Shown: positions 2,032 to 62,759 of the stretch, one piece after another | Layout of the letters: the number at the start of each line of letters is the position of its first letter | Position numbering within the stretch: position 1 is the first letter of the stretch | Source: Escherichia coli | Lineage (GTDB): Bacteria > Pseudomonadota > Gammaproteobacteria > Enterobacterales > Enterobacteriaceae | Assembly: GCF_030013205.1 (NCBI RefSeq) | Contig: NZ_CP122648.1 | DNA: 64,000 bases | Strand: one strand, 5' to 3' | Position numbers and translations under genes: made by a program | The notes under the pieces: generated by a model | Database searches by the model: none | Told to the model about the DNA's origin: nothing | The model's input: only the letters and a program-made list of their open reading frames with translations

Positions 2032-2211
2032 ATGTCACTGTCAATTGTTCATACCCGCGCAGCCCTGGGAGTAAATGCGCCCCCAATCACTGTTGAGGTA
2101 CATATCAGTAAAGGTCTACCCGGCTTAACGATGGTGGGCTTACCAGAAACAACGGTAAAAGAAGCCCGCGATCGCGTGCGCAGCGCCATTATCAATAGCG
2201 GATTTTTATAA
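2032..2211 (+). pseudogene. comM: comM (yifB) 5' fragment, truncated by island insertion after codon ~57
   Basis: Translation MSLSIVHTRAALGVNAPPITVEVHISKGLPGLTMVGLPETTVKEARDRVRSAIINSGF then diverges (L, stop) at the junction; the rest of the gene resumes at 16913. Confidence 0.85.
2194..2203. repeat. attL core copy (aatagcggat)
   Basis: Identical 10-mer at 16907..16916; lies at the exact point where the comM frame breaks. Confidence 0.5.
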
Positions 2212-2300
2212 ATTAGTGTTTTTTGCTGTTTCATAATGTGCCACGTTGTTCATTATGTTTTTGATTTTTAAGTCTATTACAATTTTCATTGTTCCAGCTT

Positions 2301-2353
2301 GTTCCACGTTGTACCCCTTTGTGCAATGATCGGTGTAGTCACTGGTGTAGTCA
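2301..2353. repeat. Subterminal left repeat (gttccacgttgt ... cggtgtagtcactggtgtagtca), candidate integrase arm-type site
   Basis: Imperfect ~55-bp direct repeat of 16781..16838 near the opposite island end. Confidence 0.45.
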
Positions 2354-2391
2354 TTTTTTTTGCAAACAGGGGAGGAAATGTGAGCAGAGCA

Positions 2392-3609
2392 ATGAACAAA
2401 CTGAGCGACACATTGTTAAGAAAACTTCATGGTAAGCCGGCGGAGAAAAATACGTTTTATAGCGATGGCGGAAATCTGAGCGTGAAATATTTAACATCAG
2501 GGAAATTGACCTGGTATTTCACTTACAGGGCGGGAACGGGAAGGGGTACACCACCGGAACGCCTGAAGCTGGGAAATTATCCTGATCTGAGCCTGAAAGC
2601 AGCCAGGGAAAAAGCAGCACAGTGTCGCGCATGGCTGGCAGAAGGAAAAAATCCACGCCATGAGCTTAATTACTCCATACAGGAAGCACTAAAGCCGGTA
2701 ACGGTGGGCGATGCGATCAGCTACTGGCTGGAAATGCACGTAAAGGAAAACCGTGTCGATTACGTATGCCTGAAAAGCCGCCTTAATAATCACGTCATAC
2801 AGCATATTGGCAATATGCCACTGGATAAATGCGAGTTACGTCACTGGCTGGCCTGTTTTGACCGGATACGCAAAAAATCACCCGTAACATCTGGCCACAT
2901 GATGCAGGCGTGTAAACAGGCGCTTAAGTTCTGCCGTAAACGTCGCTACGCAGTCAGTAACGTTCTGGATGATCTCAACGTGGTGGACGTTGGCAAAAAG
3001 CCGGGCATAAGCGAACGCGTGCTGAGCAACAAAGAACTGAGCGAATTATTACAGGCGCTGGATAAAAAAATATTCCCGCCCTACTACAGCGCACTAATCC
3101 GCCTCCTGATTGTGTTCGGCTGCCGGACCGGAGAACTGAGGCTGTCGGAGATCAGGGAGTGGGATTTTAAGGAAATGCTCTGGACAGTACCGAAAGAGCA
3201 CAGCAAAACGAAGGTCGCCATATTCAGGCCAATACCGGAAAGCATTTTGCCGTTCGTCACACAGCTGGTGGAGCAGAACAGGCACACAGGGCTATTACTC
3301 GGGGAACTGAAACAGGAAGCCAGCGTGTCGCAATACGGCAGATTCACGCACAAAAAATTAAACCATCCGCACTGGTCACTACACGATATACGGCGCACGT
3401 TTACCACGATGCTGAACGATTTAGGCGTGGATCCACATATTGTCGAACAACTCACCGCTCACCAGATGCCAGGGATGCAACGAGTCTATAACCACTCCCG
3501 TTATATCGATGCGAAACGTAATGCGCTGGATATGTGGACAGAGCGATTAGAGATACTGGCAGGTGCTCACGAAAACGTAACCACACTGCCAATAGCCAGA
3601 GAAATATAA
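2392..3609 (+). CDS. int: Tyrosine recombinase / phage integrase
   Basis: ORF 2299..3609; likely start ATG 2392 (MNKLSDT) after GGGAGGA at 2368-2376; C-terminal HDIRRTF...VYNHSRY region consistent with a tyrosine-recombinase catalytic domain; abuts attL. Confidence 0.85.
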   Translation: MNKLSDTLLRKLHGKPAEKNTFYSDGGNLSVKYLTSGKLTWYFTYRAGTGRGTPPERLKLGNYPDLSLKAAREKAAQCRAWLAEGKNPRHELNYSIQEALKPVTVGDAISYWLEMHVKENRVDYVCLKSRLNNHVIQHIGNMPLDKCELRHWLACFDRIRKKSPVTSGHMMQACKQALKFCRKRRYAVSNVLDDLNVVDVGKKPGISERVLSNKELSELLQALDKKIFPPYYSALIRLLIVFGCRTGELRLSEIREWDFKEMLWTVPKEHSKTKVAIFRPIPESILPFVTQLVEQNRHTGLLLGELKQEASVSQYGRFTHKKLNHPHWSLHDIRRTFTTMLNDLGVDPHIVEQLTAHQMPGMQRVYNHSRYIDAKRNALDMWTERLEILAGAHENVTTLPIAREI

Positions 3610-3627
3610 TTTTTTTCGCGATTTTTC

Positions 3628-3690
3628 AGAACGGACACAACGTGAAACAACGAGACACAACGACGAACAACGGCGAACAATCTGGAACAA
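3628..3690 (+). repeat. Array of six ~10-bp direct repeats (RAACAACG family) downstream of int
   Basis: acacaacg tgaaacaacg agacacaacg acgaacaacg gcgaacaatc tggaacaaac read directly from sequence. Confidence 0.4.
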
Positions 3691-3976
3691 ACTTGATTAT
3701 CATCTGACCGACACCCTAAAAAGTTGATTTTCAGTCGTTTTACTGGCTTTTTGTACATTGGCGAATCACTCTTAAAAACATGTAAAAAAGGCGTAAAAAC
3801 AGAATTTTACGCTACCGCATCACAATGAATTAAAAGAGTTTTTATTCTCATTACCCCACTTCTGTAAAACGACCGCCACCAGTGTTTGCCATTCCATAAA
3901 CACCCTGACACAATCCGACCCAACCCAACCCAATAATCCACCCAATGACTCTTTAAGAAACAACAAAGGGGGAATT

Positions 3977-4165
3977 GTGTTAAGCACAGATCGCTTTATA
4001 CGTGAAAAAGAATGTCAGCAACTTACAGGCCTGAGCCGTTCATGCCGCTACCGCCTGGAAAAAGCCGGACAATTCCCATCACGGCGTAAACTCGGTGGTC
4101 GTTCCGTTGGCTGGTCTTTATCCGAAGTTCTGGCATGGAAGGACAGCCGCGAGGCAGTTCACTAA
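3977..4165 (+). CDS. alpA: AlpA-family phage transcriptional regulator (62 aa)
   Basis: GTG start after AAAGGGGGA; translation LTGLSRSCRYRLEKAGQFPSRRKLGGRSVGWSLSEVLAW resembles the AlpA/prophage CP4-57 regulator HTH. Confidence 0.7.
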   Translation: MLSTDRFIREKECQQLTGLSRSCRYRLEKAGQFPSRRKLGGRSVGWSLSEVLAWKDSREAVH

Positions 4166-4217
4166 TCAGGCTGGCGGCACACAGCCGCCTCCCATCCACT
4201 AATACAGAGATTTAACC

Positions 4218-5018
4218 ATGAATACTGGATATACGCCTGTACAGGGGCGGGGCTTCGTTCGGCCTGAAAAACAGAATCTGCAAAATTTCGCTGAAATTAT
4301 TCCGGTTATTTCCGGCGTTATTGGTGGGCGTGAAACCACTATTGTTAGCGCCAGAGCGTTACATAAGGCGTTAGGTGTAGGGCGCGTTTTCCGTTCGTGG
4401 ATCAAGGGGCGCATTGAAGAATACGGGTTCACGGAAGGCGTGGATTATGAGGTTGTTGAATATTTGAGCCGACCCGATCCGGTGAGCGCAAAATCTCGCC
4501 AGCAAACCGCTCTTGAGTACATCATCACAGTGAACATGGCGAAAGAACTGGCGATGGTCGAACGTACCGAACAGGGCCGCGCCGTTCGCCAGTACTTTAT
4601 CAAATGCGAGGAGGAGCTACACAAGGTAGCGCCAGTGCGTTCCGCAGCGTTACGCCGGGAACTGAAAGCCCGTATCACCGTTGCCAGCTACTTTAAGCCA
4701 ATGTGTGCCGCGCTGGAGGCGTACCGGGCTGAACTGGGTAAAAACACGTTCCAGCACCACTACACCACGGAAGCCAATATGCTGGCGCGTATCGTGCTGG
4801 GTGGCATGACTGCAAAACAGTGGGCGCAGGCGAACGGCATCACAGGCGAACCACGCGACCACATGAGCACGTTGCAGCTTGAGCACCTTTCTTACCTTGA
4901 GCAGAGCAATATCACGCTGATTGAGTTAGGCCAGGGCTACCACCAGCGGAAAGCTGAATTAATTCGTCTTTCGCAGCGTTGGTTAGCCCGTCGCATGGAG
5001 GAAAACAGCCATGTGTAA
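4218..5018 (+). CDS. Phage antirepressor-like protein (266 aa)
   Basis: N-terminal ...TIVSARALHKALGVGRVFRSWIKGRIEEYGFTEGVDYEV resembles Bro-N/Rha/ORF6N-type antirepressor domains (recollection, unverified). Confidence 0.55.
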   Translation: MNTGYTPVQGRGFVRPEKQNLQNFAEIIPVISGVIGGRETTIVSARALHKALGVGRVFRSWIKGRIEEYGFTEGVDYEVVEYLSRPDPVSAKSRQQTALEYIITVNMAKELAMVERTEQGRAVRQYFIKCEEELHKVAPVRSAALRRELKARITVASYFKPMCAALEAYRAELGKNTFQHHYTTEANMLARIVLGGMTAKQWAQANGITGEPRDHMSTLQLEHLSYLEQSNITLIELGQGYHQRKAELIRLSQRWLARRMEENSHV

Positions 5019-5414
5019 CGCTCTGACCGTTACAAAAAGAGAAAGCGCCCCGTTGCCGGAGCGCCTTTGTGAACGAATAGCCTACTGCGCCATATTGCTT
5101 ACTGTCTACGAGGCAGATTATAGCGTTGTGGTCGCACAGAGTGAAGGCGCTGATCACCGTTACTACAGCACGCCAGAAATGCAGAATATTTTGCTGCAAA
5201 ATGCCGTTGGTCACGCCGTCCGGAAAGCAAAAAATTTTGCTGGTGGCGCGACTGATGCGATTTTGTCAGGTCGCCAGGTGCTGATCAATCTGATGTCTGA
5301 TTTCGTTCTGGATAAAACAAAGGCGACCGCAGAGGGTCGCCAGTGGGTATTACGGCAAATCAAACTTGAACGCATCACCAACAATGCCACATTTGCGGCT
5401 GGTGGGCAATGTGA

Positions 5415-5603
5415 TCAGTCAGATTTGGTTCGTTCCAGGGTTTGCAACGAGAGCTTTTTCCTGCGCTCTTTAAGGAATTTCTCAAGAGCAAACGAACAAG
5501 GTGCGAATCTTTCTGATTCATGCTCTATCTTTCTGCGCCGTCTTTTCCGTGTCGGTGATAATGTTTTGGTCAATTCTTTATCGGTCATTGTGTTGTCCTG
5601 CAT
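5415..5603 (-). CDS. Small basic hypothetical protein (62 aa)
   Basis: Minus-strand ORF with Arg/Lys-rich segment TRKRRRRKIEHESERF; downstream of the RHH gene on the same strand; no clear SD. Confidence 0.35.
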   Translation of the reverse strand: MQDNTMTDKELTKTLSPTRKRRRRKIEHESERFAPCSFALEKFLKERRKKLSLQTLERTKSD

Positions 5604-5645
5604 AGCAATGCGCCGTAGTTACTCACACCACGGCGCTGATAGTGA

Positions 5646-5843
5646 TTATTCTGATTCTTTGGCCTTCCGGCGCTGTTCATATTTTAATTTGCGTCCACAG
5701 GCATCTAAGACCCATGCGGAAAAATTAGCACTAGGATTAGTTAATTTTTCTTGTTCAACGCTGGCATCAATCCCATCTATAAGCTCATGTGGGAATCGAA
5801 TATTTTTCTTTGCTGATTTGTTGTTTGTGTTACCGCTAGACAT
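5646..5843 (-). CDS. Ribbon-helix-helix (CopG/Arc-like) putative repressor (65 aa)
   Basis: KKNIRFPHELIDGIDASV (beta strand) followed by NFSAWVLDACGRKL (helix) pattern; GAGG SD 7 nt upstream; start abuts the palindromic operator cluster. Confidence 0.55.
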   Translation of the reverse strand: MSSGNTNNKSAKKNIRFPHELIDGIDASVEQEKLTNPSANFSAWVLDACGRKLKYEQRRKAKESE

Positions 5844-5870
5844 TGATGCACCTCACTTAAATGGACTTTA

Positions 5871-5951
5871 TGGGCGCACACAATACAGCAAAAAAAATGA
5901 GATGTTAAGTATTGACATGTGCGCACACATGATTTTAATCTGTGCGCACAG
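5871..5951. promoter_or_regulatory. Divergent promoter/operator region with three TGTGCGCACA palindromes
   Basis: tgggcgcaca 5871-5880, tgtgcgcaca 5918-5927, ctgtgcgcacag 5940-5951; TTGACA at 5912-5917 with a 17-bp spacer and ttaatc as candidate -10, so operators sit in the spacer and just downstream. Confidence 0.5.
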
Positions 5952-6048
5952 TTTGAGTTTTGTCACTCAAATTAAGCAACGCCCCGCAGTGCTCGCAACA
6001 CATGCAGGGCGTCTAACCACCAACGATAGCAAGAGTATCGAGGTAGCT

Positions 6049-6252
6049 ATGAGAAATCATACCACACACCCGCAAGGGCGGGACTCGCACAACCTGAATA
6101 AATATATCTGGCGTTTTATCGCCCTGAGCACCGCACAACCGCGCGTGATTCACATCGTGGCCACCAGCGAACAGGAAGCACGCCAGCAATCTCCTGATGG
6201 CTGCGTGATGGTATTCGCTGCCCGTATTCGTCAGGGGGTAAGTCATGCATAA
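6049..6252 (+). CDS. Hypothetical small protein (67 aa), first gene of early operon
   Basis: Internal ATG of the long stop-free frame, preceded by GAGGTAG; 3' end overlaps the next start (ATG 6245). Confidence 0.4.
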   Translation: MRNHTTHPQGRDSHNLNKYIWRFIALSTAQPRVIHIVATSEQEARQQSPDGCVMVFAARIRQGVSHA

Positions 6253-6610
6253 CCTGTCAATTTCTGACCTTAACTGCATTCAGTTTGACGAGAAATTTAC
6301 CGGGCAGCTACTGGTCCATGTGGAGAACGGGCGCATAGTGCGTAATTACCACCTGCCGGATGGTGCAATTGCCGGAAGTGTTGAAGCATTGCTGGAACTG
6401 GCAGAGCGTGCGCGACTGATTAATCCGTCAACGTGCTATCACGATGATGATCTGCATTTTACCGGACGCATGGTGAGCCATTATGAAAACGGCGTTGAGG
6501 TATCCCGCGAACGTATGCGTGATGATTGCTGTTTCGGCACACTGCCGGAATTTATCGAGTTGCTGACCAGTTGCGGTTATCAGGTTATTCAGGGGGTGAA
6601 TTATGGATAA
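6245..6610 (+). CDS. Hypothetical protein (121 aa) with two copies of a ~50-aa repeat module
   Basis: FTGQLLVHVENGRIV...GSVEALLELAERA and FTGRMVSHYENGVEV...GTLPEFIELLTSCG within one ORF; overlaps neighbours at both ends. Confidence 0.6.
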   Translation: MHNLSISDLNCIQFDEKFTGQLLVHVENGRIVRNYHLPDGAIAGSVEALLELAERARLINPSTCYHDDDLHFTGRMVSHYENGVEVSRERMRDDCCFGTLPEFIELLTSCGYQVIQGVNYG

Positions 6611-6803
6611 TCAGCAAGCAACAATGACAATTACCCTGAGTGCGCCAGATGATTTCACCGGACGCATACTGGTTTACCTGGATAAAGGAAAAGTGAAATC
6701 ACAATGCCGACTGAAAAGTAATGAGATTGTTGGTTCTCCTGAATTTTTTTCTGAACTCTGTATTCGTGCGGAAATAAAACCGGAACTGCTGACAGGAAAA
6801 TAA
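6603..6803 (+). CDS. Hypothetical protein (66 aa), single copy of the same repeat module
   Basis: FTGRILVYLDKGKV...GSPEFFSELCIRAEI; start overlaps the previous stop. Confidence 0.6.
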   Translation: MDNQQATMTITLSAPDDFTGRILVYLDKGKVKSQCRLKSNEIVGSPEFFSELCIRAEIKPELLTGK

Positions 6804-6807
6804 AACC

Positions 6808-7098
6808 ATGAAAAAGAAAAATTCTGGCTTTACTGCCAGCGGCCTCTCTCGGCCTGAAATCCGCCCCGGTGATATTTTCCGGGACACCAGACGCGGGGGA
6901 CGGGTGGTTATTCGTCACGTTACGCCAGGCAATATCACCTACCGCCGTGAGGCTTACGAATATGACTGCGTAATGCCGCGCCGTCAGTTTGATCGTGATT
7001 TTATTCTGGTGGAAAACAAACAACTGGCAGTGGCGAGACGTGCAGCCACGAATATTAAAAAAATCCGGGCAATGTTGGTTGCGGGAGGTAAGAAGTGA
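6808..7098 (+). CDS. Hypothetical basic protein (96 aa)
   Basis: ORF with stop overlapping the GTG start of the helicase gene (GTGA at 7095-7098). Confidence 0.5.
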   Translation: MKKKNSGFTASGLSRPEIRPGDIFRDTRRGGRVVIRHVTPGNITYRREAYEYDCVMPRRQFDRDFILVENKQLAVARRAATNIKKIRAMLVAGGKK

Positions 7099-8507
7099 AA
7101 AACGCACCGAGTCTAAAATATCAGCCGAAGGATAAATTCACTGAGGTAATCATTTTTGCCGGGACGGATGCTTACGCCCATGCTCAACACTGGATTGAAA
7201 GTGAAGGACGAAAACACGGCGATAACGTGCCTCCTGTTTACCTGGGGCCAAAGCAACTGGCAGACCTGGCGAATATCCGCATTATTGACGAGAAACGCCG
7301 TTTTGCGCGTGTCTATATCGCGGGGGAGATAGAGCCAATCCAGATCAATACTATCGCTGAAAAGCTGGCGCTGGCTGGCGTACAGGAGGCGAAATTATAC
7401 AAAGGTATCACCGACCAGGAACCGGAGAACTGGCGCGACTACCTGCAACGGATCCGCGAACAGGCTGAGCGCGAAGAAATGCTTACTGACGAGCAATACA
7501 GCCAGCGAAAAACCACGCTACCAATGAGCATTGGATCGGAAGGATACGATTCACAGCTTAGCTATGTGGTTAAGGGTGTGATTCCGGCTAATTCGTTGTG
7601 CAGCACATACGGTGCGAGCGGTTCTTATAAGTCGTTCCTTGCGTGTTCGTGGGCGTGTCATGTTGCTACCGGTATCCCGTGGGGAGGTCGCAGGGTTGTA
7701 CATGGTGCGGTGATGTATGTCGTTGGTGAGGGCGGGATCGGTGTTCCTCGTCGTATCAAGGCATGGGAACTGGTGAACAGTGAGCAGGTGAAAAATCTGT
7801 ACCTGGTAAATCGTCCAATTTTTCCGGCCGCACCGAGTGATGTTGATGAAATGGTTATTGCTGCCCGACAGGTTGAGCAGGAAACGGGTAAACCTGTACG
7901 CATGATTATTCTGGATACTCTGGCGCGTTGCTTTGGTGGCAGCGATGAAAATGATGCGCGGGATATGGGGGCATTTGTCCATGGATGTGACGAACTGAAA
8001 CGGCGTACAGGCGCTACAGTGCTGGTAATTCACCATTCCGGCAAGGATGAAACAAAGGGTGCGCGCGGTTCCAGTGCGTTTCGTGCAGCACTGGATGCAG
8101 AGTACCGGATACGCCGTGAAGGTGCAGGCAGTGAAGCCCTGGTTATCGCATGTACCAAGATGAAGGATGCGGAGGAACTGAAAGAAATGGCTTGCGATTT
8201 GCGCGAGGTTGAGCTTTTCAAGGATGAAGGCGGGGAGTTAATCACGTCATTGGTGCTGGAGGATAAGCCCCGTCCGCCAGTTGAACTGGAGCGCATCGAG
8301 TACGCTGCTAACAAGACAGAGAATCACGTCGCGCTATGGGGCTGTATCCGTTCACGCACGCAACGCGGAGATAAATGCACTATCCCGTTGTTGCGCGATG
8401 ACATGAAAAAGCTGGGGTATGAGATGAAACACTTCCGGCGCTGGCTGTACAAGCTGGAAGGTGACGGCGTAATCACTATTGACGGTGATGACGTGCGCCC
8501 ACTGTAA
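7095..8507 (+). CDS. Replication helicase/primase-like protein, RecA-fold (AAA_25/RepA-like) ATPase (470 aa)
   Basis: GASGSYKSF Walker-A-like motif, MIILDTLARCFGG and LVIHHSGKDETKGARGSSAF motifs typical of RepA/DnaB-like helicases; iterons immediately downstream. Confidence 0.65.
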   Translation: MKNAPSLKYQPKDKFTEVIIFAGTDAYAHAQHWIESEGRKHGDNVPPVYLGPKQLADLANIRIIDEKRRFARVYIAGEIEPIQINTIAEKLALAGVQEAKLYKGITDQEPENWRDYLQRIREQAEREEMLTDEQYSQRKTTLPMSIGSEGYDSQLSYVVKGVIPANSLCSTYGASGSYKSFLACSWACHVATGIPWGGRRVVHGAVMYVVGEGGIGVPRRIKAWELVNSEQVKNLYLVNRPIFPAAPSDVDEMVIAARQVEQETGKPVRMIILDTLARCFGGSDENDARDMGAFVHGCDELKRRTGATVLVIHHSGKDETKGARGSSAFRAALDAEYRIRREGAGSEALVIACTKMKDAEELKEMACDLREVELFKDEGGELITSLVLEDKPRPPVELERIEYAANKTENHVALWGCIRSRTQRGDKCTIPLLRDDMKKLGYEMKHFRRWLYKLEGDGVITIDGDDVRPL

Positions 8508-16916: not shown

Positions 16917-18265
16917 ATGAATATCCGGCGAAAAAAATCACCATCAACCTTGCTCCAGCCGATCTGCCAAAAGAAGGGGGACGATATGATTTACCTATCG
17001 CCATTGCGTTGCTGGCGGCCTCAGAACAGCTTACAGCCAATAAATTAGATGAATATGAATTAGTCGGAGAACTGGCGCTTACAGGCGCTCTGCGTGGCGT
17101 TCCCGGCGCAATCTCCAGTGCAACTGAAGCTATTAAGTCGGGCAGAAAAATTATCGTCGCGAAAGATAACGAAGATGAAGTGGGGCTAATTAACGGTGAA
17201 GGATGCCTGATAGCCGATCATCTGCAGGCTGTCTGTGCGTTTCTGGAAGGTAAGCACGCTCTCGAACGCCCGAAACCAACTGATGCAGTATCCCGGGCAC
17301 AACAACATGATCTCAATGATGTTGTCGGTCAGGAGCAAGGAAAGCGAGGACTGGAAATTACCGCCGCTGGCGGGCACAACCTTTTACTGATTGGGCCGCC
17401 GGGAACAGGTAAAACAATGCTCGCCAGCCGTATTAATGGCCTGTTGCCAGATTTAAGCAATGAAGAGGCACTGGAGAGCGCGGCGATATTAAGTCTGGTA
17501 AATGCTGAATCAGTACAAAAACAATGGCGGCAGCGCCCGTTCCGCTCACCGCATCACAGTGCGTCGTTAACTGCGATGGTGGGCGGTGGTGCAATTCCAG
17601 GGCCAGGTGAAATTTCGCTGGCACATAACGGCGTGCTTTTTCTTGATGAGCTACCTGAATTTGAACGGCGTACACTGGATGCCTTGCGAGAGCCGATTGA
17701 ATCCGGGCAGATCCATCTTTCACGCACACGAGCAAAAATAACCTATCCAGCCCGTTTCCAACTTGTTGCGGCGATGAATCCCAGCCCTACCGGACATTAT
17801 CAGGGAAACCATAACCGCTGCACACCAGAACAGACATTACGTTATCTCAACCGGCTCTCGGGGCCCTTTCTCGACCGCTTCGATCTCTCACTGGAGATCC
17901 CATTACCGCCCCCCGGCATTTTGAGTAAAACGGTAGTGCCGGGAGAAAACAGCACCACCGTTAAACAACGCGTAATGGCCGCCAGAGAGCGCCAATTTAA
18001 GCGGCAGAATAAACTGAATGCCTGGCTGGATAGTCCGGAAATACGCCAATTCTGCAAGCTTGAGAGCGAAGATGCGCAGTGGCTGGAAGAAACGCTGATC
18101 CATCTGGGGTTATCGATTCGTGCCTGGCAGCGGTTACTGAAAGTAGCACGAACCATTGCTGATATTGATCAGTCCGACATTATCACACGTCAGCATTTGC
18201 AGGAGGCAGTTAGCTATCGTGCCATTGACCGTTTGCTCATCCATCTGCAAAAACTACTGACATAA
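16913..18265 (+). pseudogene. comM: comM (yifB) 3' portion, Mg-chelatase-like AAA+ ATPase, separated from its 5' end by the island
   Basis: In-frame continuation G(Y)EYPAKKITINLAPADLPKEGG...; Walker A LLIGPPGTGKTM; ends ...LIHLQKLLT. Confidence 0.85.
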
Positions 18266-18288
18266 AAAAGGGCATTTCGCCCTTTTTA
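18265..18288. terminator. Bidirectional intrinsic terminator between comM and maoP
   Basis: aaaaagggcatttcgccctttttatt hairpin with A/T runs on both sides. Confidence 0.6.
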
Positions 18289-18322
18289 TTAATCGTCAGA
18301 ATCGGTGTAGTCTTCAGCACCT

Positions 18323-18628
18323 TCAACCTGCGGTTTTACCGCCGGAAAGGGTGTGAAAACGTTTTGGACGCTTGATACGCGTCATATACTTGGACCACAC
18401 GCGTTCTGCTTCTGTCACTGGCTCACGTTCGCCACGGCATACTGCTACGAAGAGTTTCTCTTCCTCGGTAACCGGCTCGCGTTTGCCAAGATCCAACTCA
18501 TTGAAGGCATAACCATGACGCTCAAGCAGTTGTGCCTCTTTGATGGTGAAATCACCATGACGAGAGAATCCACGTGGATAATGTTTATTGTCGAAATATC
18601 GATTAGTCGTCGTAAAGCTTTCCGCCAT
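18323..18628 (-). CDS. maoP: MaoP (YifE), with an apparent C-terminal frameshift
   Basis: [21 protein letters not shown]...HTLSGGK then TAG-stop; the +1 frame encodes an acidic tail [14 protein letters not shown] ending at 18289. Confidence 0.8.
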
Positions 18629-18746
18629 CCTGCACGCTCCTAATTCTTTGACCGAGCTAGTTATGGCGCGGAGTATTAGTTACGCTTGACAGAGTGTAAA
18701 ACAAAACATTTAAATCATAACGACAAATAATTTTGCGGAGAGCACT

Positions 18747-19586
18747 GTGGATACGGAATTGTTAAAAACTTTCCTGGAAGTTAGCCGAACGCGTCACTTT
18801 GGTCGAGCAGCTGAATCGCTCTATCTGACCCAATCAGCCGTGAGCTTTCGAATCAGACAACTGGAAAATCAACTGGGTGTGAATCTTTTCACCCGCCACA
18901 GAAACAATATCCGTTTAACCGCTGCCGGTGAAAAACTACTGCCTTATGCAGAAACGCTCATGAGCACCTGGCAGGCCGCCCGTAAGGAGGTGGCGCATAC
19001 CTCACGACATAACGAGTTTTCTATCGGTGCCAGCGCCTCATTGTGGGAATGTATGCTTAATCAGTGGCTGGGACGTTTGTATAAAAATCAGGATGCCCAT
19101 ACAGGCTTACAGTTCGAAGCGCGAATTGCCCAACGGCAGTCTCTGGTAAAACAGCTGCATGAACGCCAGCTTGATCTTCTTATTACTACTGAAGCGCCCA
19201 AAATGGACGAATTTAGCAGTCAGTTGCTCGGGTATTTCACTTTAGCGCTTTATACCAGTGCCCCTTCCAAACTAAAGGGAGATCTTAACTATCTGCGACT
19301 GGAATGGGGGCCAGATTTTCAACAGCATGAGGCAGGTTTGATCGGTGCTGACGAAGTTCCCATTCTGACAACCAGTTCTGCTGAACTGGCACAGCAACAG
19401 ATTGCGACGCTTAATGGTTGCACCTGGCTACCCGTCAGTTGGGCGCGTAAAAAGGGCGGCCTGCATACCGTTGTCGATAGCACAACACTTTCACGGCCGC
19501 TTTATGCCATATGGCTGCAAAATAGCGATAAAAATGCGTTGATTCGCGATCTATTGAAAATTAACGTGCTGGATGAAGTGTATTAA
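18747..19586 (+). CDS. hdfR: LysR-family transcriptional regulator HdfR
   Basis: GTG start; [40 protein letters not shown] LysR HTH; 279 aa. Confidence 0.9.
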
Positions 19587-55032: not shown

Positions 55033-55854
55033 ATGGCTAAAGCAAACTCTTCATTTTCTGAAGTGCAAATTGCCCGTCGTATTAAAGAGGGGCGTGGCCA
55101 AGGGCATGGTAAAGACTATATTCCATGGCTAACAGTACAAGAAGTTCCTTCTTCAGGTCGTTCCCACCGTATTTATTCTCATAAGACGGGACGAGTCCAT
55201 CATTTGCTATCTGACTTAGAGCTTGCTGTTTTTCTCAGTCTTGAGTGGGAGAGCAGCGTGCTAGATATACGCGAGCAGTTCCCCTTATTACCTAGTGATA
55301 CCAGGCAGATTGCAATAGATAGTGGTATTAAGCATCCTGTTATTCGTGGTGTAGATCAGGTTATGTCTACTGATTTTTTAGTGGACTGCAAAGATGGTCC
55401 TTTTGAGCAGTTTGCTATTCAAGTCAAACCTGCAGCAGCCTTACAAGACGAGCGTACCTTAGAAAAACTAGAACTAGAGCGTCGCTATTGGCAGCAAAAG
55501 CAAATTCCTTGGTTCATTTTTACTGATAAAGAAATAAATCCCGTAGTAAAAGAAAATATTGAATGGCTTTATTCAGTGAAAACAGAAGAAGTTTCTGCGG
55601 AGCTTTTAGCACAACTATCCCCATTGGCCCATATCCTGCAAGAAAAAGGAGATGAAAACATTATCAATGTCTGTAAGCAGGTTGATATTGCTTATGATTT
55701 GGAGTTAGGCAAAACATTGAGTGAGATACGAGCCTTAACCGCAAATGGTTTTATTAAGTTCAATATTTATAAGTCTTTCAGGGCAAATAAGTGTGCAGAT
55801 CTCTGTATTAGCCAAGTAGTGAATATGGAGGAGTTGCGCTATGTGGCAAATTAA
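55033..55854 (+). CDS. tnsA: Tn7 transposase subunit TnsA (endonuclease-like)
   Basis: 273 aa; MAKANSSFSEVQIARRIKEGRGQGHGKDYIPWLTVQEVPS. Confidence 0.9.
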   Translation: MAKANSSFSEVQIARRIKEGRGQGHGKDYIPWLTVQEVPSSGRSHRIYSHKTGRVHHLLSDLELAVFLSLEWESSVLDIREQFPLLPSDTRQIAIDSGIKHPVIRGVDQVMSTDFLVDCKDGPFEQFAIQVKPAAALQDERTLEKLELERRYWQQKQIPWFIFTDKEINPVVKENIEWLYSVKTEEVSAELLAQLSPLAHILQEKGDENIINVCKQVDIAYDLELGKTLSEIRALTANGFIKFNIYKSFRANKCADLCISQVVNMEELRYVAN

Positions 55855-57949
55855 TGAGGTTGTGCTATTTGATAATGATCCGTATCGCATTTTGGCTATA
55901 GAGGATGGCCAAGTTGTCTGGATGCAAATAAGCGCTGATAAAGGAGTTCCACAAGCTAGGGCTGAGTTGTTGCTAATGCAGTATTTAGATGAAGGCCGCT
56001 TAGTTAGAACTGATGACCCTTATGTACATCTTGATTTAGAAGAGCCGTCTGTAGATTCTGTCAGCTTCCAGAAGCGCGAGGAGGATTATCGAAAAATTCT
56101 TCCTATTATTAATAGTAAGGATCGTTTCGACCCTAAAGTCAGAAGCGAACTCGTTGAGCATGTGGTCCAAGAACATAAGGTTACTAAGGCTACAGTTTAT
56201 AAGTTGTTACGCCGTTACTGGCAGCGTGGTCAAACGCCTAATGCATTAATTCCTGACTACAAAAACAGCGGTGCACCAGGGGAAAGACGTTCAGCGACAG
56301 GAACAGCAAAGATTGGCCGAGCCAGAGAATATGGTAAGGGTGAAGGAACCAAGGTAACGCCCGAGATTGAACGCCTTTTTAGGTTGACCATAGAAAAGCA
56401 CCTGTTAAATCAAAAAGGTACAAAGACCACCGTTGCCTATAGACGATTTGTGGACTTGTTTGCTCAGTATTTTCCTCGCATTCCCCAAGAGGATTACCCA
56501 ACACTACGTCAGTTTCGTTATTTTTATGATCGAGAATACCCTAAAGCTCAGCGCTTAAAGTCTAGAGTTAAAGCAGGGGTATATAAAAAAGACGTACGAC
56601 CCTTAAGTAGTACAGCCACTTCTCAGGCGTTAGGCCCTGGGAGTCGTTATGAGATTGATGCCACGATTGCTGATATTTATTTAGTGGATCATCATGATCG
56701 CCAAAAAATCATAGGAAGACCAACGCTTTACATTGTGATTGATGTGTTTAGTCGGATGATCACGGGCTTTTATATCGGCTTTGAAAATCCGTCTTATGTG
56801 GTGGCGATGCAGGCTTTTGTAAATGCTTGCTCTGACAAAACGGCCATTTGTGCCCAGCATGATATTGAGATTAGTAGCTCAGACTGGCCGTGTGTAGGTT
56901 TGCCAGATGTGTTGCTAGCGGACCGTGGCGAATTAATGAGTCATCAGGTCGAAGCCTTAGTTTCTAGTTTTAATGTGCGAGTGGAAAGTGCTCCACCTAG
57001 ACGTGGCGATGCTAAAGGCATAGTGGAAAGCACTTTTAGAACACTACAAGCCGAGTTTAAGTCCTTTGCACCTGGCATTGTAGAGGGCAGTCGGATCAAA
57101 AGCCATGGTGAAACAGACTATAGGTTAGATGCATCTCTGTCGGTATTTGAGTTCACACAAATTATTTTGCGTACGATCTTATTCAGAAATAACCATCTGG
57201 TGATGGATAAATACGATCGAGATGCTGATTTTCCTACAGATTTACCGTCTATTCCTGTCCAGCTATGGCAATGGGGTATGCAGCATCGTACAGGTAGTTT
57301 AAGGGCTGTGGAGCAAGAGCAGTTGCGAGTAGCGTTACTGCCTCGCCGAAAGGTCTCTATTTCTTCATTTGGCGTTAATTTGTGGGGTTTGTATTACTCG
57401 GGGTCAGAGATTCTGCGTGAGGGTTGGTTGCAGCGGAGCACTGATATAGCTAGACCTCAACATTTAGAAGCGGCTTATGACCCAGTGCTGGTTGATACGA
57501 TTTATTTGTTTCCGCAAGTTGGCAGCCGTGTATTTTGGCGCTGTAATCTGACGGAACGTAGTCGGCAGTTTAAAGGTCTCTCATTTTGGGAGGTTTGGGA
57601 TATACAAGCACAAGAAAAACACAATAAAGCCAATGCGAAGCAGGATGAGTTAACTAAACGCAGGGAGCTTGAGGCGTTTATTCAGCAAACCATTCAGAAA
57701 GCGAATAAGTTAACGCCCAGTACTACTGAGCCCAAATCAACACGCATTAAGCAGATTAAAACTAATAAAAAAGAAGCCGTGACCTCGGAGCGTAAAAAAC
57801 GTGCGGAGCATTTGAAGCCAAGCTCTTCAGGTGATGAGGCTAAAGTTATTCCTTTCAACGCAGTGGAAGCGGATGATCAAGAAGATTACAGCCTACCCAC
57901 ATACGTGCCTGAATTATTTCAGGATCCACCAGAAAAGGATGAGTCATGA
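55841..57949 (+). CDS. tnsB: Tn7 transposase subunit TnsB (DDE transposase)
   Basis: 702 aa; overlaps the tnsA 3' end; central DDE/RNase-H-like region. Confidence 0.9.
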
Positions 57950-59613
57950 GTGCTACCCGGATTCAAGCAGTTTATCGTGATACGGGGGTAGAGGCTTATC
58001 GTGATAATCCTTTTATCGAGGCCTTACCACCATTACAAGAGTCAGTGAATAGTGCTGCATCACTGAAATCCTCTTTACAGCTTACTTCCTCTGACTTGCA
58101 AAAGTCCCGTGTTATCAGAGCTCATACCATTTGTCGTATTCCAGATGACTATTTTCAGCCATTAGGTACGCATTTGCTACTAAGTGAGCGTATTTCGGTC
58201 ATGATTCGAGGTGGCTACGTAGGCAGAAATCCTAAAACAGGAGATTTACAAAAGCATTTACAAAATGGTTATGAGCGTGTTCAAACGGGAGAGTTGGAGA
58301 CATTTCGCTTTGAGGAGGCACGATCTACGGCACAAAGCTTATTGTTAATTGGTTGTTCTGGTAGTGGGAAGACGACCTCTCTTCATCGTATTCTAGCCAC
58401 GTATCCTCAGGTGATTTACCATCGTGAACTCAATGTAGAGCAGGTGGTGTATTTGAAAATAGACTGCTCGCATAATGGTTCGCTAAAAGAAATCTGCTTG
58501 AATTTTTTCAGAGCGTTGGATCGAGCCTTGGGCTCGAACTATGAGCGTCGTTATGGCTTAAAACGTCATGGTATAGAAACCATGTTGGCTTTGATGTCGC
58601 AAATAGCCAATGCACATGCTTTAGGGTTGTTGGTTATTGATGAAATTCAGCATTTAAGCCGCTCTCGTTCGGGTGGATCTCAAGAGATGCTGAACTTTTT
58701 TGTGACGATGGTGAATATTATTGGCGTACCAGTGATGTTGATTGGTACCCCTAAAGCACGAGAGATTTTTGAGGCTGATTTGCGGTCTGCACGTAGAGGG
58801 GCAGGGTTTGGAGCTATATTCTGGGATCCTATACAACAAACGCAACGTGGAAAGCCCAATCAAGAGTGGATCGCTTTTACGGATAATCTTTGGCAATTAC
58901 AGCTTTTACAACGCAAAGATGCGCTGTTATCGGATGAGGTCCGTGATGTGTGGTATGAGCTAAGCCAAGGAGTGATGGACATTGTAGTAAAACTTTTTGT
59001 ACTCGCTCAGCTCCGTGCGCTAGCTTTAGGCAATGAGCGTATTACCGCTGGTTTATTGCGGCAAGTGTATCAAGATGAGTTAAAGCCTGTGCACCCCATG
59101 CTAGAGGCATTACGCTCGGGTATCCCAGAACGCATTGCTCGTTATTCTGATCTAGTCGTTCCCGAGATTGATAAACGGTTAATCCAACTTCAGCTAGATA
59201 TCGCAGCGATACAAGAACAAACACCAGAAGAAAAAGCCCTTCAAGAGTTAGATACCGAAGATCAGCGTCATTTATATCTGATGCTGAAAGAGGATTACGA
59301 TTCAAGCCTGTTAATTCCCACTATTAAAAAAGCGTTTAGCCAGAATCCAACGATGACAAGACAAAAGTTACTGCCTCTTGTTTTGCAGTGGTTGATGGAA
59401 GGCGAAACGGTAGTGTCAGAACTAGAAAAGCCCTCCAAGAGTAAAAAGGTTTCGGCTATAAAGGTAGTCAAGCCCAGCGACTGGGATAGCTTGCCTGATA
59501 CGGATTTACGTTATATCTATTCACAACGCCAACCTGAAAAAACCATGCATGAACGGTTAAAAGGGAAAGGGGTAATAGTGGATATGGCGAGCTTATTTAA
59601 ACAAGCAGGTTAG
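57946..59613 (+). CDS. tnsC: Tn7 transposition regulator TnsC (AAA+ ATPase)
   Basis: 555 aa; Walker [11 protein letters not shown]; ATGA overlap with tnsB. Confidence 0.9.
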
Positions 59614-59615
59614 CC

Positions 59616-61142
59616 ATGAGAAACTTTCCTGTTCCGTACTCGAATGAGCTGATTTATAGCACTATTGCACGGGCAGGCGTTTATCAAGGGATTGTTAGTC
59701 CTAAGCAGCTGTTGGATGAGGTGTATGGCAACCGCAAGGTGGTCGCTACCTTAGGTCTGCCCTCGCATTTAGGTGTGATAGCAAGACATCTACATCAAAC
59801 AGGACGTTACGCTGTTCAGCAGCTTATTTATGAGCATACCTTATTCCCTTTATATGCTCCGTTTGTAGGCAAGGAGCGCCGAGACGAAGCTATTCGGTTA
59901 ATGGAGTACCAAGCGCAAGGTGCGGTGCATTTAATGCTAGGAGTCGCTGCTTCTAGAGTTAAGAGCGATAACCGCTTTAGATACTGCCCTGATTGCGTTG
60001 CTCTTCAGCTAAATAGGTATGGGGAAGCCTTTTGGCAACGAGATTGGTATTTGCCCGCTTTGCCATATTGTCCAAAACACGGTGCTTTAGTCTTCTTTGA
60101 TAGAGCTGTAGATGATCACCGACATCAATTTTGGGCTTTGGGTCATACTGAGCTGCTTTCAGACTACCCCAAAGACTCCCTATCTCAATTAACAGCACTA
60201 GCTGCTTATATAGCCCCTCTGTTAGATGCTCCACGAGCGCAAGAGCTTTCCCCAAGCCTTGAGCAGTGGACGCTGTTTTATCAGCGCTTAGCGCAGGATC
60301 TAGGGCTAACCAAAAGCAAGCACATTCGTCATGACTTGGTGGCGGAGAGAGTGAGGCAGACTTTTAGTGATGAGGCACTAGAGAAACTGGATTTAAAGTT
60401 GGCAGAGAACAAGGACACGTGTTGGCTGAAAAGTATATTCCGTAAGCATAGAAAAGCCTTTAGTTATTTACAGCATAGTATTGTGTGGCAAGCCTTATTG
60501 CCAAAACTAACGGTTATAGAAGCGCTACAGCAGGCAAGTGCTCTTACTGAGCACTCTATAACGACAAGACCTGTTAGCCAGTCTGTGCAACCTAACTCTG
60601 AAGATTTATCTGTTAAGCATAAAGACTGGCAGCAACTAGTGCATAAATACCAAGGAATTAAGGCGGCAAGACAGTCTTTAGAGGGTGGGGTGCTATACGC
60701 TTGGCTTTACCGACATGACAGGGATTGGCTAGTTCACTGGAATCAACAGCATCAACAAGAGCGTCTGGCACCCGCCCCTAGAGTTGATTGGAACCAAAGA
60801 GATCGAATTGCTGTACGACAACTATTAAGAATCATAAAGCGTCTAGATAGTAGCCTTGATCACCCAAGAGCGACATCGAGCTGGCTGTTAAAGCAAACTC
60901 CTAACGGAACCTCTCTTGCAAAAAATCTACAGAAACTGCCTTTGGTAGCGCTTTGCTTAAAGCGTTACTCAGAGAGTGTGGAAGATTATCAAATTAGACG
61001 GATTAGCCAAGCTTTTATTAAGCTTAAACAGGAAGATGTTGAGCTTAGGCGCTGGCGATTATTAAGAAGTGCAACGTTATCTAAAGAGCGGATAACTGAG
61101 GAAGCACAAAGATTCTTGGAAATGGTTTATGGGGAAGAGTGA
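59616..61142 (+). CDS. tnsD: Tn7 target-site selector TnsD (attTn7/glmS recognition)
   Basis: 508 aa; MRNFPVPYSNELIYSTIARAG; Cys/His zinc-finger-like CPDC...CPKHG. Confidence 0.9.
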   Translation: MRNFPVPYSNELIYSTIARAGVYQGIVSPKQLLDEVYGNRKVVATLGLPSHLGVIARHLHQTGRYAVQQLIYEHTLFPLYAPFVGKERRDEAIRLMEYQAQGAVHLMLGVAASRVKSDNRFRYCPDCVALQLNRYGEAFWQRDWYLPALPYCPKHGALVFFDRAVDDHRHQFWALGHTELLSDYPKDSLSQLTALAAYIAPLLDAPRAQELSPSLEQWTLFYQRLAQDLGLTKSKHIRHDLVAERVRQTFSDEALEKLDLKLAENKDTCWLKSIFRKHRKAFSYLQHSIVWQALLPKLTVIEALQQASALTEHSITTRPVSQSVQPNSEDLSVKHKDWQQLVHKYQGIKAARQSLEGGVLYAWLYRHDRDWLVHWNQQHQQERLAPAPRVDWNQRDRIAVRQLLRIIKRLDSSLDHPRATSSWLLKQTPNGTSLAKNLQKLPLVALCLKRYSESVEDYQIRRISQAFIKLKQEDVELRRWRLLRSATLSKERITEEAQRFLEMVYGEE

Positions 61143-62759
61143 GTGGTTAGGCTAGCTACATTTAATGACAATGTGCAGGTTGTACATATTGGTCATTTAT
61201 TCCGTAACTCGGGTCATAAGGAGTGGCGTATTTTTGTTTGGTTTAATCCAATGCAAGAACGGAAATGGACTCGATTTACTCATTTGCCTTTATTAAGTCG
61301 AGCTAAGGTGGTTAACAGTACAACAAAGCAAATAAATAAGGCGGATCGTGTGATTGAGTTTGAAGCATCGGATCTTCAACGAGCCAAAATAATCGATTTT
61401 CCTAATCTCTCGTCCTTTGCTTCCGTACGCAACAAGGATGGAGCGCAGAGTTCATTTATTTACGAAGCTGAAACACCATATAGCAAGACTCGTTATCACA
61501 TCCCACAGTTAGAGCTAGCTCGGTCATTATTTTTAATTAACTCCTATTTCTGTCGAAGCTGTTTGAGCAGTACCGCTTTACAGCAAGAGTTCGACGTTCA
61601 GTATGAGGTTGAGCGAGATCATTTAGAGATAAGGATCTTACCCAGTTCATCGTTTCCTAAAGGGGCGTTAGAGCAGTCGGCCGTAGTGCAGCTTTTGGTT
61701 TGGTTGTTTTCGGATCAAGATGTTATGGATTCGTATGAAAGTATTTTTAGGCACTATCAACAAAATAGAGAAATTAAGAACGGCGTTGAAAGCTGGTGCT
61801 TTAGCTTTGACCCTCCGCCCATGCAGGGTTGGAAATTACATGTAAAAGGACGTTCTTCTAACGAGGATAAGGATTATTTAGTTGAGGAAATAGTAGGTTT
61901 AGAAATCAACGCTATGCTTCCTAGCACAACAGCTATTAGCCATGCCTCTTTTCAGGAAAAGGAGGCAGGTGATGGTAGTACGCAGCACATAGCGGTTTCA
62001 ACAGAGTCAGTTGTTGATGATGAGCATCTACAGTTGGACGATGAGGAAACAGCCAATATAGACACAGACACACGAGTCATAGAGGCTGAGCCGACATGGA
62101 TAAGTTTTAGTAGACCTAGTCGAATTGAAAAATCTCGCAGGGCAAGAAAAAGTAGCCAAACTATTTTAGAAAAAGAAGAAGCAACAACAAGTGAAAATAG
62201 TAATTTGGTTAGTACTGATGAGCCACACTTAGGTGGTGTCCTAGCAGCGGCAGATGTGGGTGGGAAGCAGGATGCAACCAATTACAACTCTATTTTTGCT
62301 AATCGATTTGCTGCTTTTGATGAGCTACTTTCAATTCTAAAAACTAAATTTGCATGTCGGGTGCTTTTTGAAGAAACCTTGGTTTTGCCAAAAGTTGGGC
62401 GTAGCCGATTACATCTGTGTAAAGATGGCTCACCAAGAGTGATTAAAGCCGTTGGGGTGCAACGTAATGGCAGTGAATTTGTATTGCTAGAGGTGGATGC
62501 ATCGGATGGGGTGAAAATGCTTTCTACCAAAGTGTTGAGTGGCGTTGATAGCGAAACATGGCGGAATGATTTTGAAAAGATACGGCGTGGAGTGGTGAAG
62601 AGCTCATTGAATTGGCCAAATAGTTTGTTTGATCAATTATATGGACAAGACGGGCATAGAGGGGTGAATCATCCAAAGGGGTTGGGGGAGCTGCAAGTAT
62701 CGAGAGAGGATATGGAAGGGTGGGCTGAGAGAGTGGTTAGAGAGCAATTTACGCATTAA
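61143..62759 (+). CDS. tnsE: Tn7 alternative target selector TnsE
   Basis: 538 aa; GTG start immediately after the tnsD stop. Confidence 0.85.
   Translation: MVRLATFNDNVQVVHIGHLFRNSGHKEWRIFVWFNPMQERKWTRFTHLPLLSRAKVVNSTTKQINKADRVIEFEASDLQRAKIIDFPNLSSFASVRNKDGAQSSFIYEAETPYSKTRYHIPQLELARSLFLINSYFCRSCLSSTALQQEFDVQYEVERDHLEIRILPSSSFPKGALEQSAVVQLLVWLFSDQDVMDSYESIFRHYQQNREIKNGVESWCFSFDPPPMQGWKLHVKGRSSNEDKDYLVEEIVGLEINAMLPSTTAISHASFQEKEAGDGSTQHIAVSTESVVDDEHLQLDDEETANIDTDTRVIEAEPTWISFSRPSRIEKSRRARKSSQTILEKEEATTSENSNLVSTDEPHLGGVLAAADVGGKQDATNYNSIFANRFAAFDELLSILKTKFACRVLFEETLVLPKVGRSRLHLCKDGSPRVIKAVGVQRNGSEFVLLEVDASDGVKMLSTKVLSGVDSETWRNDFEKIRRGVVKSSLNWPNSLFDQLYGQDGHRGVNHPKGLGELQVSREDMEGWAERVVREQFTH

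What the first reader, a model, noticed from the sequence alone, without database searches (positions are those of the whole stretch)
18323..18340. maoP (yifE) appears frameshifted near its 3' end
After ...HTLSGGK the frame reads T-A-G-stop, whereas the +1 frame encodes an acidic tail [14 protein letters not shown] ending at its own stop at 18289. The shift coincides with a 4-nt A-run on the coding strand (T-run at 18334-18337 on plus). From memory the native sequence has three A here; this is a homopolymer error or a real truncating variant.
Basis: partly seen in the sequence, partly recalled or inferred. Interest (0 to 1): 0.3.

Follow-up and report, generated by a model that had tools for sequence, protein, structure and literature searches.

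The report
One-base homopolymer frameshift in maoP
The maoP gene in this E. coli window has one extra A that cuts off its conserved acidic tail, but the pattern in near-identical genomes suggests a sequencing or assembly error rather than real biology.

Summary
maoP (yifE) lies on the minus strand at 18628..18323. It reads 98 native residues, then T-A-G-stop. The native tail [14 protein letters not shown] sits in the +1 frame and ends at 18289. The cause is AAAA at 18334-18337 where the reference has AAA.

The window matches E. coli ETEC4079 (NZ_CP122643.1) over all 64,000 bases except this one extra base, and that record has an intact 112-aa maoP. Only 2 of 5,426 complete E. coli genomes carry the four-A allele: ETEC4070 and ETEC6333, by strain name and locus tag from the same collection. 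NCBI marks maoP as 'frameshifted' in both. 5,220 genomes carry the three-A version with identical flanks.

Each four-A genome has a twin with no substitutions over 49-64 kb. The twins differ only by one-base homopolymer indels. The three pairs have three different yifB states, so the extra A arose three separate times. It also turns up in an NCTC assembly and in two contigs assembled from public reads, all on other backgrounds.

A consensus error is the best explanation (about 0.78). A real truncation (about 0.17) would keep the DUF413 core and lose a tail conserved across 19 homologues from other Enterobacterales genera. The finding is ordinary and of low interest.

The parts
18323..18628 (-). 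maoP (yifE) reading frame as it stands: 101 codons plus a TGA stop. It gives 98 native residues followed by T-A-G.
   Evidence: ORF list and translation. Pfam DUF413 matches residues 10-97, E = 1.7e-38.
18334..18337 (-). The AAAA run on the coding strand (TTTT on plus). It is one base longer than the AAA of intact maoP and is the site of the frameshift.
   Evidence: Alignment with ETEC4070, K_EC180 and 510016. It is the only difference from ETEC4079 in 64,000 bases.
18289..18333 (-). The displaced native 3' end of maoP in the +1 frame: [14 protein letters not shown] plus TAA. This is the conserved acidic tail.
   Evidence: Translation. The tail is conserved in 19 homologues of 112 aa from other Enterobacterales genera.
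18289..18628 (-). The whole maoP locus, 340 nt. NCBI annotates the same span as a 'frameshifted' pseudogene in the two complete genomes that carry the same allele.
   Evidence: Annotation of ETEC4070 and ETEC6333.
18663..18679 (-). maoS, the 17-nt cis site CTAATACTCCGCGCCAT of the MaoP/maoS system. It is intact.
   Evidence: One exact match in the window, none in 100 shuffles. The motif sequence is from PMC5023128.
18747..19586 (+). hdfR, the divergent neighbour of maoP. It is intact.
   Evidence: ORF list. Annotation of the near-identical ETEC4079 record.
16901..18265 (+). The 3' part of yifB (comM-like Mg-chelatase-family ATPase), convergent with maoP. Its 5' part lies about 14.5 kb upstream, beyond an inserted island.
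   Evidence: Translation compared with intact yifB. Annotated 'incomplete, missing N-terminus' in ETEC4079.

Best explanation
The extra A is most likely a homopolymer-length error in the consensus sequence of the assembly, so the real maoP is probably the ordinary intact 112-aa gene. The window is one of a set of near-clonal pig ETEC assemblies. Within that set, copies that are otherwise identical differ only by single-base changes in homopolymer length. The maoP AAA/AAAA call flips between them regardless of how they are related. The run sits in the loop of a small hairpin (GCGG-TAAA-CCGC). I infer, without having tested it, that this may make the position prone to a systematic insertion call. 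What is shown: the extra base exists, it is extremely rare, it clusters in one strain collection, and it is scattered against the genome backgrounds. What is inferred: that the cause is technical rather than mutational.
For: (1) The window equals ETEC4079 (NZ_CP122643.1, 5078873-5142871) with 0 substitutions and exactly one gap in 64,000 bases. That gap is this A. The RefSeq record encodes intact MaoP WP_000841001.1.
(2) AAAA with exact flanks occurs in only 2 of 5,426 complete E. coli genomes. Both carry the same ETECnnnn strain naming and QDW/QDX locus tags. AAA occurs in 5,220. Members of the same clone under other strain names (K_EC180, O139:H1 W13-16 and P15-25) have AAA.
(3) ETEC4070 against ETEC4071, over 49 kb: 0 substitutions and 2 one-base indels, both in homopolymers (maoP A4/A3 and an intergenic A7/A8). 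ETEC6333 against ETEC6334, over 49 kb: 0 substitutions and 2 one-base homopolymer indels (maoP A4/A3 and an intergenic T6/T7).
(4) The three pairs are different backgrounds. yifB is intact in 4070/4071, about 89 bp shorter in 6333/6334, and split by an island in the window/4079. The extra A therefore arose three separate times. The A4/A3 and A7/A8 states occur in all four combinations.
(5) The identical 101-aa product also occurs in NCTC assembly GCA_900449925.1 and in Logan contigs (assemblies of public read runs) from SRR15827889 and SRR15828000. These are three further backgrounds. The NCTC and SRR15827889 contigs have other one-base indels that also break yifB.
(6) The lost tail is conserved in length and pattern across Enterobacterales, so repeated real loss in recent clones would be unexpected.
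Against: I could not examine any reads. I could not find the sequencing platform of the ETEC assemblies in the searchable literature. A run of only three bases is short for a classical long-read homopolymer error. The same insertion in several unrelated data sets could instead point to a true mutational hotspot, because the extra A adds a T:A pair to the local hairpin (-6.5 to -7.9 kcal/mol as DNA). The window is not the RefSeq ETEC4079 sequence. Its exact source is unknown, so I cannot say how it was produced.
Confidence: 0.78

Rival explanations
1. The insertion is genuine. The strain makes a truncated MaoP of 98 native residues plus T-A-G. This protein keeps the whole DUF413 core and the invariant FHTLSGGK motif but lacks the 14-residue acidic tail. 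[quoted passage not shown] No polar effect is expected, because maoP is monocistronic and convergent with yifB.
For: The base is present in the window and in five other public sequences. DUF413 covers residues 10-97 in both the short and the full-length forms. The AlphaFold model puts the helical core at roughly residues 25-89 and gives residues 90-112 pLDDT below 50, so the core fold would survive. maoS and the maoP promoter region are unchanged. Loss of maoP is viable, with about 5% abnormal cells reported in PMC5023128.
Against: It would require the same +1 insertion at an A3 run to arise independently in three clonal pairs that show no substitutions over 49-64 kb. Selection for loss of function would be expected to give varied lesions, not one identical lesion. 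The allele is absent from 5,424 of 5,426 complete genomes. The tail is under clear purifying selection: P99, Q100, E105, D106, D111 and D112 are nearly invariant, and every full-length homologue aligned is exactly 112 aa.
Confidence: 0.17
2. The site is a recoding site. Ribosomes slip +1 on A-AAA (Lys), or RNA polymerase slips on the A run, so full-length MaoP is still made from the four-A allele.
For: A +1 shift of tRNA-Lys from AAA to the overlapping AAA would restore exactly the native frame (...GGK-PQVEG...). This follows from the sequence.
Against: The two-frame arrangement is not conserved. 5,220 of 5,426 E. coli genomes, and all 19 homologues aligned, encode the protein in one frame. 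The codon after the run is a common sense codon (ACC), not a stop or a rare codon. There is no clear stimulatory element. Four A's are far too few for efficient transcriptional slippage (established knowledge). NCBI's pipeline treats the allele as a pseudogene.
Confidence: 0.02
3. The window is a deliberately or accidentally altered copy of the ETEC4079 record, for example an earlier or unpolished assembly version or an edited sequence. In that case the extra base has no counterpart in any organism.
For: The window differs from NZ_CP122643.1 by this single base over 64 kb. No record in the complete-genome collection matches the window exactly.
Against: The identical insertion occurs in ETEC4070, ETEC6333, an NCTC assembly and two Logan contigs. 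A random edit would not be expected to reproduce it. In practice this rival merges with the consensus-error explanation.
Confidence: 0.03

Closest known systems
MaoP (YifE, UPF0438/DUF413, PF04219), the trans-acting protein of the MaoP/maoS Ori-macrodomain system of E. coli (Valens et al. 2016, PMC5023128)
   Same: Residues 1-98 are identical to E. coli MaoP WP_000841001.1. The genomic setting is the same: divergent from hdfR, with the exact 17-nt maoS in the intergenic region, and convergent with yifB.
   Different: As read, the protein is 101 aa rather than 112 aa and lacks the acidic tail [14 protein letters not shown].
maoP pseudogenes annotated 'frameshifted' by NCBI PGAP in E. coli ETEC4070 (QDW57_RS24525) and ETEC6333 (QDX83_RS25025)
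   Same: They carry the same four-A insertion at the same position and are 100% identical over 551 nt.
   Different: The yifB background differs. It is intact in ETEC4070, about 89 bp shorter in ETEC6333, and split by an island in the window.
Homopolymer-length consensus errors of long-read bacterial assemblies
   Same: The differences between otherwise identical genomes are indels only, all are in homopolymers, and they are spread incongruently among the genomes.
   Different: The run is only 3-4 bases, which is shorter than typical error-prone tracts. Neither the platform nor the reads could be checked.

Membership tests
MaoP / YifE (Pfam DUF413, PF04219) | Match to the DUF413 profile above Pfam's gathering score | tested here: met
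   130.9 bits against a cut-off of 25, residues 10-97, profile positions 1-88 of 90.
MaoP / YifE (Pfam DUF413, PF04219) | Genomic setting: divergent from hdfR with the maoS motif CTAATACTCCGCGCCAT in the intergenic region, and convergent with yifB | tested here: met
   maoS matches exactly at 18663-18679. hdfR is at 18747-19586 and yifB ends at 18265. The motif and gene layout are from PMC5023128.
MaoP / YifE (Pfam DUF413, PF04219) | Full-length 112-aa product with the conserved C-terminal acidic tail (PQxDxxEDYTDSDD) | tested here: not met
   The window frame ends after Lys98 plus TAG. All 19 homologues aligned are 112 aa and have the tail.
MaoP / YifE (Pfam DUF413, PF04219) | Constrains the mobility of Ori-macrodomain loci in trans through maoS | not testable with these tools
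   This needs the live-cell marker-mobility assay of Valens et al. 2016.
Long-read homopolymer consensus error | Otherwise identical assemblies differ only by one-base indels inside homopolymers | tested here: met
   4070/4071, 6333/6334 and window/4079 show 0 substitutions and 2, 2 and 1 homopolymer indels over 49-64 kb.
Long-read homopolymer consensus error | The distribution of the variant is incongruent with how the genomes are related | tested here: met
   There is one four-A member in each of three distinct backgrounds. A4/A3 and A7/A8 occur in all four combinations.
Long-read homopolymer consensus error | Raw reads, or an orthogonal accurate technology, show the reference length | not testable with these tools
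   I had no access to reads, and no paper giving the platform was found.
Programmed ribosomal frameshift site | The two-frame gene arrangement and the slippery site are conserved among homologues | tested here: not met
   The gene is in a single frame in 5,220 of 5,426 E. coli genomes and in all 19 other homologues aligned.
Phase-variable contingency locus (simple-sequence repeat switch) | A long mutable tract (typically 7 or more identical bases) whose length varies widely across the species | tested here: not met
   The tract is 3-4 bases. The longer form is in 2 of 5,426 complete genomes.

The most novel reading that the evidence does not exclude
The AAA in the loop of the GCGG-TAAA-CCGC hairpin could be a true insertion hotspot. 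It would repeatedly and independently generate tail-less MaoP in E. coli lineages, including pig ETEC clones. That would make it a natural recurrent switch that alters organisation of the Ori macrodomain.
Probability: 0.03. Interest if true: 0.45.

Novelty: not a real feature. Interest (0 to 1): 0.07.

Why it matters
It matters mainly as quality control. Without correction, this maoP would be annotated as a pseudogene or as a truncated protein. The same spurious-looking allele already sits in two RefSeq complete genomes, in one NCTC assembly and in UniProt (A0A377KGF0). If the variant were real, it would be a natural deletion of the conserved acidic tail of MaoP, whose role is unknown. That would give a ready-made allele for testing what the tail does in the MaoP/maoS system.

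Tried and rejected
- **Source project.** I searched the literature for the strain names and accession numbers to learn the sequencing platform and found nothing. A broader search turned up a porcine ETEC genome paper (PMC11267873), but it describes a different BioProject sequenced with short reads.
- **Solved structures.** There is no sequence relative of MaoP in the PDB.
- **Terminator.** The scan between maoP and yifB called nothing. A GGGCG-AAA-TGCCC stem followed by T6 is visible by eye at about 18282-18264.
- **Hairpin.** Folding around the run gives a small stem-loop, slightly more stable with the extra A, but not clearly beyond shuffled controls (z = -1.7 and -2.5). I keep it only as a speculative cause of recurrence.
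- **Programmed frameshifting and phase variation.** I considered both and rejected them on conservation and tract length.
- **One real mutation inherited by a clade.** I rejected this because the four-A genomes are each closest to a three-A twin in a different yifB background.

Full report
**What is in the sequence.** On the minus strand, an ORF runs from ATG at 18628 to TGA at 18325-18323. It encodes 101 aa ending ...[13 protein letters not shown]. Reading from 18333 in the +1 frame gives [14 protein letters not shown], followed by TAA at 18291-18289 and a second TAA. The two frames meet at AAAA on the coding strand, which is TTTT at 18334-18337 on the plus strand. An alignment with intact genes shows that this run has exactly one A more than the normal GGT-AAA-CCG.

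**Identity of the gene.**
- The product matches Pfam DUF413 (PF04219) over residues 10-97 at 130.9 bits.
- The same DNA is annotated as maoP, 'macrodomain Ori organization protein MaoP', in thousands of E. coli records.
- The 17-nt maoS site CTAATACTCCGCGCCAT defined by Valens et al. (PMC5023128) lies intact at 18663-18679, between maoP and the divergent hdfR.
- yifB is convergent with maoP and ends at 18265.
- According to that paper, maoP acts in trans and maoS in cis to constrain DNA mobility in the Ori macrodomain. Inactivation is viable, with about 5% abnormal cells.

**Where the window comes from.** A 24-kb query picked out E. coli ETEC4079 (NZ_CP122643.1), a Belgian pig isolate. I fetched the matching 64 kb of that record and compared it base by base. 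There were 0 substitutions and exactly one gap in 64,000 positions, and that gap is the extra A in maoP. The RefSeq record has AAA and an intact 112-aa MaoP, WP_000841001.1. The window is thus a one-base variant of that record. Its exact source is not in the complete-genome collection, and I cannot identify it.

**How common the allele is.**
- A 40-mer and a 30-mer centred on the run can only match if the run is AAAA. Each finds 2 of 5,426 complete E. coli genomes: ETEC4070 and ETEC6333.
- The 39-mer with AAA finds 5,220 genomes.

**Error or real variant.** The key evidence comes from near-identical twin genomes.

| Pair | Length compared | Substitutions | One-base indels | yifB state |
|---|---|---|---|---|
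| ETEC4070 / ETEC4071 | 49 kb | 0 | maoP A4/A3; A7/A8 between hdfR and tRNA-Trp | intact |
| ETEC6333 / ETEC6334 | 49 kb | 0 | maoP A4/A3; T6/T7 between asnC and mioC | about 89 bp shorter, shared by both |
| window / ETEC4079 | 64 kb | 0 | maoP A4/A3 | split by an island of about 14.5 kb |

- One member of each of three distinct backgrounds has the extra A. A single origin is therefore excluded.
- The maoP A4/A3 and intergenic A7/A8 states occur in all four combinations.
- Members of the same clone under other strain names (K_EC180 and two O139:H1 strains) have AAA.
- Indel-only, homopolymer-only differences that are incongruent with relatedness and cluster in one strain collection are the signature of consensus noise. 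They are not what descent would produce.

**The same allele elsewhere.**
- An exact look-up found the 101-aa protein in NCTC assembly GCA_900449925.1 (protein STP23233.1, UniProt A0A377KGF0) and in two Logan contigs (assemblies of public read runs) from SRR15827889 and SRR15828000.
- These three differ from the ETEC clone by 0.5-2.3% in the region, so they are further independent occurrences.
- In the NCTC contig and the SRR15827889 contig, yifB is also broken by other one-base indels. The NCTC contig also has an extra T inside maoS.
- Other public contigs carry different frameshifts in the neighbouring short homopolymers AAAACGTTTTCACACCCTTTCC.
- I could not establish the platforms of any of these data sets.

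**Why this site might recur.** This part is inference. The run forms the loop of a small hairpin, GCGG-TAAA-CCGC. The extra A adds a T:A pair to the stem, taking the fold from -6.5 to -7.9 kcal/mol as single-stranded DNA. Neither value stands out clearly from shuffled sequences. Such a structure could bias either a sequencing consensus or a polymerase in vivo, and I cannot tell which.

**What a real truncation would do.**
- The DUF413 core would be untouched.
- An AlphaFold model built on a shallow 20-sequence alignment has a mean pLDDT of 64. It predicts three helices between residues 29 and 86 and gives residues 90-112 pLDDT below 50. The tail is probably a flexible extension.
- The tail is nonetheless strongly conserved. 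All 19 homologues aligned, from Enterobacteriaceae, Erwiniaceae, Yersiniaceae, Morganellaceae and Budviciaceae, are exactly 112 aa and end in PQxDxxEDYTDSDD-like sequences. P99, Q100, E105, D106, D111 and D112 are nearly invariant.
- Loss of the tail would therefore probably impair function. That makes three independent losses in clones with no other changes even less plausible.
- No polar effect is expected, because maoP is monocistronic and convergent with yifB.

**Recoding.** A +1 slip of tRNA-Lys on A-AAA would restore the native frame. However, the two-frame layout is not conserved anywhere, the next codon is an ordinary ACC, and four A's are too few for transcriptional slippage. I give this about 2%.

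**Verdict.** The most likely explanation, at about 0.78, is a one-base homopolymer consensus error in a near-clonal set of pig ETEC assemblies. A genuine tail-less MaoP allele remains possible at about 0.17. Either way the feature is already flagged in RefSeq as a frameshifted pseudogene, and it is of low interest. Read pile-ups or a Sanger read across 18250-18450 would settle it.

Noticed in passing
window 2032-2205 (yifB 5' fragment), about 2300-16840 (island), 16901-18265 (yifB 3' part): yifB (comM-like Mg-chelatase-family ATPase) is split by an island of about 14.5 kb. The island carries a tyrosine integrase (2380-3609), an antirepressor, Icd-like genes, a RepA-family helicase, ProQ/FinO, PerC, a NUDIX hydrolase and a lytic transglycosylase. 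It is flanked by an imperfect 59-nt direct repeat at 2299-2357 and 16779-16837 (78% identity, spacing 14,480). Only ETEC4079, and partly ETEC1748, share most of it among the complete E. coli genomes.
   Followed up: partly
window about 55033-62759: A Tn7-like element (TnsA, TnsB-like DDE transposase, AAA ATPase, TnsD, TnsE) is inserted immediately downstream of glmS, the classical attTn7 position. A fragment of an IS256-family transposase follows it. This is from the annotation of the identical ETEC4079 record.
   Followed up: no
L006/L007 near 26091 (intergenic hdfR to tRNA-Trp; window about 19646); L008/L009 near 46646 (intergenic asnC to mioC): Two further one-base homopolymer differences (A7/A8 and T6/T7) separate otherwise identical sibling ETEC genomes. 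The A7 state is shared by ETEC4070, ETEC6333 and ETEC6334, whereas the other genomes checked have A8.
   Followed up: yes
L008 23307-24738 and L009 23313-24744 (ETEC6333 and ETEC6334): yifB is 1,432 nt instead of 1,521 nt and is annotated 'frameshifted' in both siblings. This looks like a shared and apparently genuine deletion of about 89 bp, so yifB is damaged in two different ways within this ETEC group.
   Followed up: no
L010 near 2953 (NCTC assembly GCA_900449925.1): The NCTC contig that shares the four-A allele also has an extra T inside maoS (CTAATTACTCC instead of CTAATACTCC) and a split yifB. This suggests many small indel errors in that assembly.
   Followed up: partly
proteins P0091, P0107, P0122, P0123, P0133, P0009 (public contigs): Several other frameshifted maoP products (97-137 aa) exist in public assemblies. 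They diverge at nearby short homopolymers around codons 89-95. The 3' end of maoP is therefore a recurrent place for one-base indel calls.
   Followed up: partly
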